Virus record (IMG/VR): IMGVR_UViG_2923355181_000001 | Reading direction: 5' to 3' (one strand) | DNA length: 42,980 nt | From: a virus | Lineage: Duplodnaviria > Heunggongvirae > Uroviricota > Caudoviricetes | Shown: in pieces, positions 39,091 to 41,121 of the stretch | Layout: every line of letters starts with the position of its first letter | Position numbering within the stretch: position 1 is the first letter of the stretch | Translations under genes and position numbers: made by a program | The notes under the pieces: model-generated | What the model saw: only the letters and a program-made list of their open reading frames with translations | Databases searched by the model: none | What the model was told of the DNA's origin: nothing

Positions 39091-39372
39091 ATGGAATCAT
39101 TATTAGACAGTATGACTATTACGCTCTCTCGCCCGTTTATTATTAAGGGGGAGAGCCGCGATACAATTACTATTCGCGAACCAAAATTACGCGACCGCAT
39201 TATGTTCAGTAACGATAAAAGTGGTCTTGAAGAGCGGACAGCGACAATGCTGGCGCGCCTGGCAAATCTGGAGCGTGAGGATTTATATGCACTGCCTGCG
39301 TGCGATTACGATCAAATGGAGGCCGCATTTAACGAACTGGTAAAGCCTCCGAAAGACCGACATCAGATATAG
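39091..39372 (+). CDS. tail assembly chaperone (P2 gpE-like)
   Basis: 93-aa ORF preceding tape-measure gene; a -1 frame stays open over its 3' end and into the tape-measure start. Confidence 0.65.
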   Translation: MESLLDSMTITLSRPFIIKGESRDTITIREPKLRDRIMFSNDKSGLEERTATMLARLANLEREDLYALPACDYDQMEAAFNELVKPPKDRHQI

Positions 39373-39480
39373 TTATTCTGATTCCGTTTATTGCGAAAAA
39401 ACTTGCCATCCCGCCCGATACGCAAATGGACCTGCCGTACCGGGTTTTTAATTTCTATGTAAACGAGGTCATGAAAATCG

Positions 39481-41121
39481 ATGGCTATTTCTCAAAACTT
39501 TAAAACGCAGGTTGTATTCGGTGGGCGAATAGACCCGTCGTTTCGTCGCGGTACAACAGAACTCAATGATGCGATTCGGCAGACGTCGTCTACTGTCGGG
39601 AAATTAACGAAAAGTCAGGATAAATTAAAAGACAAAATCGCAGCAATGAAACTGGCAGGTAAAGACGTTTCTGATTTATCTGCTCAGTATCAAAAGCTGG
39701 ACCGTCGAATAAAAGCGACAACGCAGGACCAGGAGGCGCTGAATACTCAACTTGCTAAAAAACAGCGGCTGGAGAAGTGGACGGGTCGCGCAAAAGGAGC
39801 TGCAAAATGGGGCGGACGAGCCGCCGCAGGTGCGGTGAGGGCTACGGGGCGGGGTATCAAATGGGGGACACTTGGCGCGGCAGGGCTCATTGGCGGTGCT
39901 GCAGCTGGTGCGCTGGCAATGAATGCAGAGACGTCAGAAAAACTCGGTCTGGCGAAGTCCTACGGCGTTGGCGTCGAAAAATACGCTGCGTGGGAAAATA
40001 TTGGTAAAGCCGCGGGCCTGAACGGCGAAAATATCGGGGATTTGTCTGAAGAACTTACAAATAAAATCGGCGAAATCGGAAACGAAAAAAGCCTGAATCC
40101 CATGTTATTTCAAATTGGCCTGACGAAAAAACGAATGGCTGGCTGGGATCGGGAAAAACAGTTTAATGAGGTTATGCGTCGCATCTCTGAAATGAAAGAT
40201 GAGAAGCAAGCGGCGAGCCTCGCTGACCAGCTCATGGGGGGCGAGGCTAATAAGATCATGACGTATATGAAGGCGACGGGTAAAAGCTGGGAACAGACAA
40301 TGTCTGACGCGCAAAAGTCGAATTTGTTAACAAAAGAGGGTGCGGAAGGGGCGGCGCGTGCGCATGTATCAGTGACAAATCTGTGGGGCTCTATTACGTC
40401 GGGACTTGCAGATACACTCGGTAAAATCGGGGGGGAACTCGCGCCGACGTTTGACTCAGTACGTGAAACATTTACATCCTGGTTTAAGGATAATCAGGGT
40501 GGTTTTGTCAGCACAATTACTGAGTGGGTAAAACCAGAAAATATGAAAAAAATGTGGGATGGCATCGTCAATTTTGGAGAAGGTTGCGTCAAATTCGGGA
40601 AGATTATATGGGCTGTCGTAAAGAAACTGGAGTGGCTTATTCCGGATGAAAAATCAGATGAAGAACAGAAAACTTATAATGACGAATATAATCGGGCATA
40701 TCAAGAGTTTATGGATTCGGGAGGTAAATATTCACCGAACGCTGGATTGACTGCTGATAATATTGCGAAGGCAAAAGCCGAAGAGGCTGTCGAAAATATG
40801 CGGCATCCAGAACGGCAAGAACAGGCAAAATCTCAGGCAGAATCAATGCTCGCGTTTGTTAATCCATTATCCGGGATGGTAAATAAAAATACCGCGCCTG
40901 CAGCACTGGATTCGTCGACGTTAAATATTGATACGTTGAAGCAGGCAGTCTCGACACCTGCGCCGGAGCAAAACAATAAAATCGAAATCAATATTGTCGG
41001 TGCGACAGATCCGCAGTCAATACAACAATCTGCAGCGTCGGGGGTGCTCGATGGACTGAGACAGGCTGCGAGTTCGTACAATCGTGGCGCGATGTTTGAT
41101 AAACCAGCTGCGGCGGGGTGA
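39481..41121 (+). CDS. tail tape measure protein
   Basis: 546 aa, Gly/Ala-rich, low-complexity helical composition; between chaperone and gpU-like gene. Confidence 0.85.
   Translation: MAISQNFKTQVVFGGRIDPSFRRGTTELNDAIRQTSSTVGKLTKSQDKLKDKIAAMKLAGKDVSDLSAQYQKLDRRIKATTQDQEALNTQLAKKQRLEKWTGRAKGAAKWGGRAAAGAVRATGRGIKWGTLGAAGLIGGAAAGALAMNAETSEKLGLAKSYGVGVEKYAAWENIGKAAGLNGENIGDLSEELTNKIGEIGNEKSLNPMLFQIGLTKKRMAGWDREKQFNEVMRRISEMKDEKQAASLADQLMGGEANKIMTYMKATGKSWEQTMSDAQKSNLLTKEGAEGAARAHVSVTNLWGSITSGLADTLGKIGGELAPTFDSVRETFTSWFKDNQGGFVSTITEWVKPENMKKMWDGIVNFGEGCVKFGKIIWAVVKKLEWLIPDEKSDEEQKTYNDEYNRAYQEFMDSGGKYSPNAGLTADNIAKAKAEEAVENMRHPERQEQAKSQAESMLAFVNPLSGMVNKNTAPAALDSSTLNIDTLKQAVSTPAPEQNNKIEINIVGATDPQSIQQSAASGVLDGLRQAASSYNRGAMFDKPAAAG

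What the first reader, a model, noticed from the sequence alone, without database searches (positions are those of the whole stretch)
39333..39503. Possible programmed -1 frameshift extending the tail chaperone (E/E'-like)
The -1 frame relative to the chaperone gene is open from 39333 across the chaperone stop (39370-39372) and ends at 39501-39503, overlapping the tape-measure start by about 20 nt. This is the arrangement expected for P2 E/E' and lambda G/GT. I could not find a canonical X-XXY-YYZ slippery heptamer in 39333-39369, so the mechanism or exact site is unresolved. An A6C run lies at 39396-39402 but is downstream of the stop.
Basis: inference. Interest (0 to 1): 0.4.

Follow-up and report, generated by a model that had tools for sequence, protein, structure and literature searches.

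The report
Unannotated frameshift-extended phage tail chaperone
This E. coli prophage very probably makes a second, longer version of its tail-assembly chaperone by letting a few ribosomes slip back one base at a conserved GGTAAAG. The trick is well known in phages, but this site is atypical and genome annotation misses it.

Summary
The -1 frame is open from 39333 to 39503. It crosses the stop of the 93-aa PF10109 chaperone gene (39091..39372) and ends 23 nt inside the tape-measure gene (starts 39481).

Alone, this open frame is only marginally unusual (about 3% of shuffles). Comparison with relatives settles it. Eight lineages sharing 55-75% protein identity all keep a gap-free 54-codon extension, and its substitutions follow a coding pattern.

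There is no canonical X_XXY_YYZ heptamer. G_GTA_AAG (39339-39345) is invariant in all eight lineages. GTA and AAG are two of only four synonymously invariant codons among 34 conserved ones. A_AAG is the only -1 slip-compatible tetramer in the permitted interval. In several relatives the -1 frame opens only one or two codons before this site.

The site sits at the C-terminal edge of the PF10109 domain, as does P2's T_TTT_TTG. The likely product is a 137-aa, 15.8-kDa fusion, join(39091..39345,39345..39503).

I found no conserved stimulatory RNA structure. The extension matches no Pfam, NCBIfam or PHROG family and is unannotated in RefSeq.

Verdict: an ordinary, known mechanism (lambda G/GT, P2 E/E+E') with a non-canonical hexanucleotide-type site. 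It is a new member of a known kind and of modest interest. No expression data were examined.

The parts
38566..39078 (+). Tail tube gene (170 aa), immediately upstream of the chaperone
   Evidence: PF04985 Phage_tube, E=1.5e-21
39091..39372 (+). Tail assembly chaperone gene, 0-frame product of 93 aa and 10.8 kDa (P2 gpE / lambda gpG analogue)
   Evidence: PF10109 Phage_TAC_7, E=1.7e-15, residues 9-84. phrog_166 'tail protein'. RefSeq annotates it as 'phage tail assembly protein'.
39318..39322 (+). Shine-Dalgarno-like GGAGG inside the chaperone gene, 16 nt upstream of the shift site. A possible weak stimulator, unproven.
   Evidence: GGAGG is present in 7 of 8 lineages; the eighth has GAAGAGG. 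From my own knowledge, the spacing is longer than the 10 nt of dnaX.
39339..39345 (+). Proposed -1 shift site G_GTA_AAG (0-frame codons ctG GTA AAG). tRNA-Lys re-pairs from AAG to AAA.
   Evidence: Invariant in 8 lineages. GTA and AAG are 2 of only 4 nucleotide-invariant codons among 34 amino-acid-invariant degenerate codons. It is the only Z_ZZN tetramer in the overlap (read from the sequence). In relatives the -1 frame opens 1-2 codons before it. A_AAG and NNA_AAG sites are documented in PMC5009743.
39333..39503 (+). -1 frame ORF (56 codons plus stop). Codons from 39345 onward would form the C-terminal extension of the long chaperone (E'/T-domain analogue).
   Evidence: Translation. The extension is gap-free and of the same length in 9 sequences, with variable columns by codon position 28/19/37. 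No conserved start codon.
39091..39503 (+). Predicted frameshift fusion CDS join(39091..39345,39345..39503), 137 aa and 15.8 kDa: ...AAFNELVK|ASERPTSDIVILIPFIAKKLAIPPDTQMDLPYRVFNFYVNEVMKIDGYFSKL
   Evidence: Two database proteins of 137 aa (P0001, P0002) equal this fusion except at 1-nt insertions that put the frames in register.
39481..41121 (+). Tape measure gene (546 aa). Its first 23 nt overlap the end of the -1 extension.
   Evidence: Position between the chaperone and the gpU homologue (PF06995) and its size. No family hit of its own.

Best explanation
This is a programmed -1 ribosomal frameshift in a tail assembly chaperone gene.

Most ribosomes translate 39091..39372 and release the 93-aa chaperone. 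A minority slip back one base at G_GUA_AAG (39339-39345). The single E. coli tRNA-Lys leaves AAG and re-pairs with AAA. The P-site tRNA-Val on GUA can re-pair with GGU at two of three positions. These ribosomes continue in the -1 frame to 39503 and make a 137-aa protein: the chaperone domain plus a 52-residue C-terminal domain.

By analogy with lambda G/GT and P2 E/E+E', the shared N-terminal domain would coat the tape-measure protein. The rare extension would recruit the tube protein, and both would leave the finished tail.

Shown here: the open frame, its conservation as coding sequence, nucleotide-level conservation of the site, and its position at the edge of the PF10109 domain.

Inferred: that slippage occurs at this heptamer, its efficiency, and the function of the extension.
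For: 1. The gene is PF10109 and sits between tube and tape-measure genes in a sheath-tube-E-T-U-X-D module.
2. The -1 extension is conserved in 8 lineages at 55-75% protein identity. It has identical length and no indels. Substitutions run 3rd > 1st > 2nd codon position in the -1 frame. Conserved motifs include DI.IL.P and PYRVFNFYV.
3. Amino-acid conservation starts upstream of, and runs across, the 0-frame stop. No ATG, GTG or TTG is conserved. The ATG at 39426 is replaced in relatives.
4. GGTAAAG is invariant. Apart from GTA and AAG, only 2 of 32 conserved degenerate codons are nucleotide-invariant.
5. In five lineages a TGA closes the -1 frame 1-2 codons before GGTAAAG. This limits the shift to a roughly 11-codon interval, in which A_AAG is the only shared slip-compatible tetramer.
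6. Related PF10109 chaperones have shift sites at the same place. P2 has T_TTT_TTG (annotated, experimentally known). Enterobacteriaceae G50 has T_TTT_TTG one codon upstream. Phage Mica has A_AAT_TTT, annotated as a frameshift. The PF10109 match ends at residue 84-85 in both P2 and the window protein.
7. -1 shifting on A_AAG and on NNA_AAG hexanucleotides in E. coli is documented. It is used by IS1222 at G_CGA_AAG. It is favoured when the 5' codon is read by a tRNA with extended wobble (PMC5009743). From my own knowledge, GUA is read only by the cmo5U34 tRNA-Val.
Against: - No expression evidence of any kind was examined: no mass spectrometry, ribosome profiling or reporter data.
- The site is not a canonical X_XXY_YYZ heptamer. 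The P-site re-pairing has a central mismatch.
- No conserved downstream hairpin or pseudoknot was found. The single-sequence fold has z = -1.15 and the alignment fold has a covariation term of -0.36.
- The upstream GGAGG is 16 nt away, further than in dnaX.
- The eight lineages are related, so invariance counts are not fully independent.
- Homology of the extension to P2 E' (PF06528) is not demonstrable.
Confidence: 0.8

Rival explanations
1. The -1 ORF is a separate small gene, translated by independent initiation at a non-canonical or internal start and not fused to the chaperone.
For: Gene callers sometimes call a fragment. Hafnia phage yong2 has an annotated 40-aa 'hypothetical protein' in the equivalent frame. 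A 40-aa ORF starting at an ATG in the L033 lineage is in the protein database (P0028). The window has an ATG at 39426.
Against: No ATG, GTG or TTG lies between 39333 and 39425 in the window. The 39426 Met is Leu or Phe in relatives, and the L033 ATG is absent elsewhere. Conservation of the peptide begins before the 0-frame stop. I saw no Shine-Dalgarno sequence ahead of the conserved part. Homologues with canonical heptamers at the same spot (P2, G50, Mica) argue for fusion.
Confidence: 0.05
2. A -1 frameshift does occur, but at another position in 39333-39369 or by another route such as transcriptional slippage or a shift at the stop codon.
For: The proposed site is non-canonical and untested. 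L010 has an additional GAA_AAA_C a few codons downstream.
Against: No other Z_ZZN tetramer exists in the window's overlap (sequence). The L010 site is not shared. There is no homopolymer run of 4 or more in the overlap for RNA polymerase slippage, and the A6 run lies after the 0-frame stop. AUA_UAG offers no -1 re-pairing.
Confidence: 0.1
3. The open -1 frame is a chance or relic feature and only the 93-aa chaperone is made.
For: The open frame alone occurs in about 3% of shuffles. RefSeq and phage records annotate nothing there. No family model matches the extension.
Against: The extension is gap-free and equal in length, with a coding-type substitution pattern, across lineages that differ at up to about 50 of 156 nucleotide positions. 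The 'intergenic' 108 nt are at least as conserved as the flanking genes in E. coli variants.
Confidence: 0.03

Closest known systems
Phage P2 gpE / gpE+E' (FETUD tail operon; -1 frameshift at T_TTT_TTG)
   Same: Both have a PF10109 N-terminal domain and the gene order sheath-tube-E-T-U...D. Both have a -1 extension that crosses the stop and overlaps the start of the tape-measure gene. In both, the shift site lies at the C-terminal edge of PF10109.
   Different: The shift site here is G_GTA_AAG, not a canonical heptamer. The extension does not match PF06528 (Phage_P2_GpE), and profile comparison with P2 E' is not significant (P=0.095). The N-domain shares only about 17% identity.
Phage lambda gpG / gpGT (-1 frameshift at G_GGA_AAG, about 1 long per 30 short)
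   Same: Same logic: a chaperone gene just before the tape-measure gene, and a low-level -1 shift near the 3' end. The shift sites differ by one base (G_GGA_AAG versus G_GUA_AAG) and both end in A_AAG. Neither has a recognisable downstream stimulator here (PMC5009743).
   Different: Lambda has a non-contractile tail and a different chaperone family, and I showed no sequence relationship. Lambda's P-site re-pairing is perfect; here position 2 mismatches.
Hexanucleotide NNA_AAG -1 shift sites (IS1222 G_CGA_AAG; B. subtilis cdd A_CGA_AAG; IS3-based NNA_AAG series)
   Same: Same type of site. Only tRNA-Lys re-pairs fully (AAG to AAA). The 5' codon ends in A and is read by a tRNA with extended wobble (PMC5009743).
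   Different: Those cases are transposase or incidental products, and IS elements usually have a downstream structure. Here the site serves a phage tail chaperone and no conserved structure was found.
Hafnia phage yong2 / Citrobacter phage Chris1 chaperone loci
   Same: PF10109 chaperones with an unannotated -1 extension at the same position. Their extensions show weak but collinear profile similarity to this one (P=1.5e-4 over 39 columns). Their sites are also non-canonical (GTT_TTT_A).
   Different: The slip is on U_UUU, not A_AAG. About 30-34% identity overall.

Membership tests
P2 E/E+E'-type tail assembly chaperone pair (PF10109 chaperone with frameshift extension) | N-terminal domain belongs to PF10109 (Phage_TAC_7) | tested here: met
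   E=1.7e-15, 57.2 bits against a cutoff of 25, residues 9-84. P2 gpE+E' hits the same model at residues 7-85.
P2 E/E+E'-type tail assembly chaperone pair (PF10109 chaperone with frameshift extension) | Gene lies between the tail tube gene and the tape-measure gene of a contractile-tail module | tested here: met
   Sheath (PF04984/PF17482), tube (PF04985), chaperone, 546-aa ORF, gpU (PF06995), X (PF05489), weak D-like match below Pfam's cut-off (PF05954, 22.4 bits against 30.1).
P2 E/E+E'-type tail assembly chaperone pair (PF10109 chaperone with frameshift extension) | A conserved -1 frame ORF overlaps the 3' end of the chaperone gene and runs to the tape-measure start | tested here: met
   39333..39503. 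Conserved, gap-free and with a coding substitution pattern in 8 lineages.
P2 E/E+E'-type tail assembly chaperone pair (PF10109 chaperone with frameshift extension) | Canonical X_XXY_YYZ slippery heptamer in the overlap | tested here: not met
   None in 39333-39369. The conserved site is G_GTA_AAG, an NNA_AAG hexanucleotide type.
P2 E/E+E'-type tail assembly chaperone pair (PF10109 chaperone with frameshift extension) | Extension belongs to PF06528 (Phage_P2_GpE, the E' part) | tested here: not met
   No Pfam hit for the extension even at E<=10, whereas P2 E' scores 2.3e-22. hhalign against P2 E' gives P=0.095.
P2 E/E+E'-type tail assembly chaperone pair (PF10109 chaperone with frameshift extension) | Both short and long products are made and both are needed for tail assembly | not testable with these tools
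   Needs proteomics and genetics.
NNA_AAG hexanucleotide -1 frameshift sites | 0-frame AAG preceded by A, so that tRNA-Lys can re-pair on AAA, with the site in the correct register | tested here: met
   GTA_AAG is in the 0 frame; the offset of the first G from the ORF start is 2 mod 3. The three other TGGTAAAG copies in the window are in the non-shifty GGT_AAA register.
NNA_AAG hexanucleotide -1 frameshift sites | Measured frameshifting above background at the site | not testable with these tools
   Needs a reporter assay.

The most novel reading that the evidence does not exclude
The GUA_AAG site, with no downstream structure and a conserved GGAGG at an atypical 16-nt distance, could be a distinct, dedicated class of tail-chaperone shift signal. 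The 52-residue extension could be a separate 'T-domain' family, absent from Pfam, PHROGs and NCBIfam and invisible to gene callers. It may contact the tube protein differently from P2 E'.
Probability: 0.25. Interest if true: 0.4.

Novelty: new member of a known kind. Interest (0 to 1): 0.3.

Why it matters
**Annotation.** This prophage is in 452 of 5,426 complete E. coli genomes, including ST131 strains such as JJ1886. In the ten RefSeq and GenBank records I inspected, the chaperone is annotated only as the 93-aa form and nothing is annotated on the following 108 nt. The search listings of about 60 records also show no second chaperone product. A probably essential tail-assembly product is therefore missing from these annotations. 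It is nearly absent from protein databases: a search of 1.84 billion representatives found only a 40-aa fragment.

**Frameshift prediction.** This is a clean, comparatively well-supported natural example of a tail-chaperone frameshift on a non-canonical NNA_AAG-type site. It could serve as a test case for predictors that look only for X_XXY_YYZ.

It does not change any concept.

Tried and rejected
- **Downstream stimulatory RNA.** The single-sequence fold of 39339-39440 has z = -1.15. The RNAalifold run on 8 lineages gave a covariation term of -0.36 and only a 3-bp CCG/CGG stem explained by Pro and Arg codons. I rejected this as a stimulator.
- **Terminator or promoter in the gap.** Nothing above shuffle expectation.
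- **Family assignment of the extension.** Pfam at E<=10, PHROGs and NCBIfam gave no hit.
- **Profile comparison with P2 E+E'.** Not significant.
- **AlphaFold2 of the fused protein with 11 rows.** Mean pLDDT was 47.8, too poor for a fold search, so I ran none.
- **Genome-contig scan with the chaperone.** Only 2 loci.
- **Divergent 9-sequence alignment for a locus search.** A narrower alignment worked.
- **Literature search for GGUAAAG/GGTAAAG plus frameshift.** Nothing relevant. Licznar et al. 2003 could not be retrieved. The PRFect supplement has no matching motif text.
- **Genome-wide '-1 frame open past the stop' statistic.** It is confounded by downstream genes and I discarded it.
- **The A6C run at 39396-39402.** It lies after the 0-frame stop and cannot link the frames.

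Full report
**1. Observation**

The 93-aa ORF 39091..39372 ends at TAG 39370-39372. In the -1 frame a TAA lies at 39330-39332. That frame is then open from 39333 to TAA 39501-39503. It translates as RTGKASERPTSDIVILIPFIAKKLAIPPDTQMDLPYRVFNFYVNEVMKIDGYFSKL.

The next large ORF, a 546-aa putative tape-measure protein, starts at 39481, so the overlap is 23 nt. There is no canonical X_XXY_YYZ heptamer in 39333-39369. The A6C run at 39396-39402 exists but lies after the 0-frame stop.

An uninterrupted frame of this length occurs in 3.4% of shuffles of the segment. On its own it is only suggestive.

**2. Context**

The window is a mosaic temperate phage. It has an integrase, a DnaB-type helicase, and a lambda-type terminase, portal, protease and capsid. 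It also has a P2-type contractile tail module:
- sheath (PF04984/PF17482)
- tube (PF04985)
- the chaperone (PF10109 Phage_TAC_7, E=1.7e-15)
- the 546-aa ORF
- gpU (PF06995)
- X (PF05489)
- a weak, below-cut-off gpD-like match (PF05954, 22.4 bits against a cut-off of 30.1)

The same DNA is present at 90% identity or more in 452 of 5,426 complete E. coli genomes (for example JJ1886) and in four short 'Escherichia phage vB_EcoM' records. RefSeq annotates only the 93-aa 'phage tail assembly protein' and leaves the following 108 nt empty.

**3. Is the -1 frame a real coding frame?**

E. coli variants at 90-97% identity keep the gap region at least as conserved as the flanking genes, but they carry too few changes to be decisive. 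I therefore fetched more distant relatives through the chaperone protein and through a profile of the predicted fusion proteins.

Eight lineages at 55-75% protein identity were compared: the window, L008, L013, L010, L012, L031, L033 and L037.
- All carry a -1 extension of exactly 54 codons after GGT AAA, without a single indel.
- All share strongly conserved motifs (DI.IL.P…K.L.I.P..Q…PYRVFNFYV.E..K..G).
- Pairwise nucleotide differences fall mostly on the third position of the -1 frame, for example 15/6/22 and 17/8/27. Variable columns by codon position are 28/19/37.

This is the signature of a translated frame.

**4. How is the frame reached?**

The window has no ATG, GTG or TTG between 39333 and 39425. 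The Met at 39426 is Leu or Phe in relatives, while peptide conservation begins before and runs across the 0-frame stop. Independent initiation is therefore unlikely, and a shift from the chaperone frame is required.

In L010, L012, L031, L033 and L037 a TGA closes the -1 frame only one or two codons upstream of the string GGTAAAG. Combined with the 0-frame stops, this confines the shift to roughly 11 codons, equivalent to window 39336-39369.

Within that interval the only Z_ZZN tetramer that allows -1 re-pairing, and the only one shared by all lineages, is A_AAG. It sits in the heptamer G_GTA_AAG at 39339-39345, read in the 0 frame as ctG GTA AAG (sequence).

Among 34 codons of the chaperone that are amino-acid-invariant and degenerate across the eight lineages, only four are also nucleotide-invariant. 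Two of these are the adjacent GTA and AAG, although Val has four codons and every other four-fold site varies. The lineages are related, so this is not a formal probability. It does indicate selection on the nucleotides themselves.

The three other TGGTAAAG strings in the window lie in the harmless GGT_AAA register.

**5. Plausibility of the site**

The review by Atkins et al. (PMC5009743) makes these points:
- The minimal -1 site is a Z_ZZN tetramer.
- A_AAG is highly shift-prone in E. coli, because one tRNA-Lys reads both AAA and AAG.
- Such shifting occurs at A_CGA_AAG in the B. subtilis cdd gene and is used productively at G_CGA_AAG by IS1222.
- In NNA_AAG motifs, 5' codons read by tRNAs with greater wobble propensity give more shifting.

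From my own knowledge, GUA is read only by the cmo5U34 tRNA-Val, which belongs to the extended-wobble class. I could not retrieve the primary paper to check where GUA_AAG ranks.

After the shift, tRNA-Val would face GGU, matching at positions 1 and 3. The site differs by one base from lambda's G_GGA_AAG.

**6. Stimulators**

I found no conserved downstream structure. The minimum-free-energy fold of 39339-39440 is ordinary (z = -1.15). The alignment fold has essentially no covariation support.

A GGAGG at 39318-39322 is kept in 7 of 8 lineages, using the less common GAG codon. It lies 16 nt before the heptamer. From my own knowledge, that is longer than the 10-nt spacing in dnaX. I list it as a possible stimulator only.

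Low-level, unstimulated shifting would fit the lambda paradigm of about 1 long product per 30 short ones (PMC5009743).

**7. Comparison with relatives that have recognised sites**

| Phage or locus | Site | Status |
|---|---|---|
| P2 gpE/gpE+E' | T_TTT_TTG | annotated -1 shift |
| Enterobacteriaceae G50 (44% identity) | T_TTT_TTG, one codon upstream of the window's site (AFNDFLLPP against AFNELVKPP) | not annotated |
| Burkholderia phage Mica | A_AAT_TTT | annotated frameshift chaperone |
| Hafnia phage yong2, Citrobacter phage Chris1 | GTT_TTT_A, non-canonical | unannotated -1 extension |

In P2 and in the window protein the PF10109 match ends at residue 84-85, exactly at the shift site. The position of the recoding event is therefore conserved across the family, while the slippery sequence itself has been replaced.

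**8. The extension**

It matches no Pfam, PHROG or NCBIfam model. P2 E' matches PF06528 at 2.3e-22.

Profile comparisons of the extension gave:
- against the yong2 type: weak, collinear similarity, P=1.5e-4 over 39 columns
- against G50: P=1e-3
- against P2 E': nothing significant, P=0.095

A full HMMER scan of 1.84 billion representative proteins with the -1 ORF found only a 40-aa ORF fragment from a relative and one spurious repeat protein.

Two 137-aa database proteins (P0001, P0002) equal the predicted fusion. They arise from 1-nt insertions near the site in read-archive assemblies, so they are not evidence for recoding.

AlphaFold2 gave an unusable model with pLDDT 47.8.

**9. Conclusion**

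The locus is a lambda G/GT- and P2 E/E+E'-type chaperone pair. The long form is most likely join(39091..39345,39345..39503), 137 aa and 15.8 kDa. It would be produced by -1 slippage on the conserved non-canonical G_GUA_AAG.

The function is inferred from lambda (PMC5009743) and was not tested here. On that model the N-domain sits on the tape-measure protein and the extension recruits the tube protein.

This is a new member of a known kind, with an atypical site and an uncatalogued extension domain. Its main value is for annotation and as a test case for frameshift prediction.

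Noticed in passing
L039 1331-2028 (NZ_CP187211.1 and at least four other ST131-type genomes, hits H5-H9); equivalent to about window 39650: An IS1 element is inserted in the tape-measure gene about 165 nt after its start. This splits the gene into two 'hypothetical protein' fragments, so the prophage tail module is probably dead in those strains.
   Followed up: partly
P0001, P0002 (Logan assemblies); equivalent to window 39333-39348: Two 137-aa proteins equal the predicted frameshift fusion because of 1-nt insertions just before or after GGTAAAG. P0002 is reported on 3 contigs of up to 16.7 kb. These are either assembly errors or natural 'long form only' mutants.
   Followed up: no
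L016 1791-1910 (Hafnia phage yong2, MZ516527) and L017 (Citrobacter phage Chris1, ON041214): Both phages have the same unannotated arrangement. yong2 calls the -1 extension as a separate 40-aa hypothetical protein. Their likely shift site is the non-canonical GTT_TTT_A.
   Followed up: partly
window 39343-39351: In the 0 frame the shift codon AAG is followed by Pro-Pro (CCT CCG). The second Pro is conserved in all lineages, the first in three. A Pro-Pro stall just after the site could in principle influence ribosome queuing. I did not test this.
   Followed up: no
window 39465-39483: The last conserved, synonymously invariant codons of the extension (GAG, AAA, GGC) coincide with the tape-measure gene's Shine-Dalgarno-like GAGG and its ATG. 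This stretch is under dual constraint.
   Followed up: partly
window 1-37000: The prophage is a mosaic. It combines lambda-type terminase (gpA), portal, S49 protease and gpE capsid with a P2-type contractile tail, plus an integrase at 584-1630 and a DnaB-type helicase at 8624-10066. The 738-aa ORF at 2790-5006 (minus strand) has no Pfam hit.
   Followed up: no
L008/L009 4913-5155 (minus strand): In the 72%-identity E. coli relatives an 80-aa PF14373 (Imm_superinfect) gene sits on the opposite strand between the gpU and X genes. The window has no such called gene there. It is a possible moron insertion.
   Followed up: no
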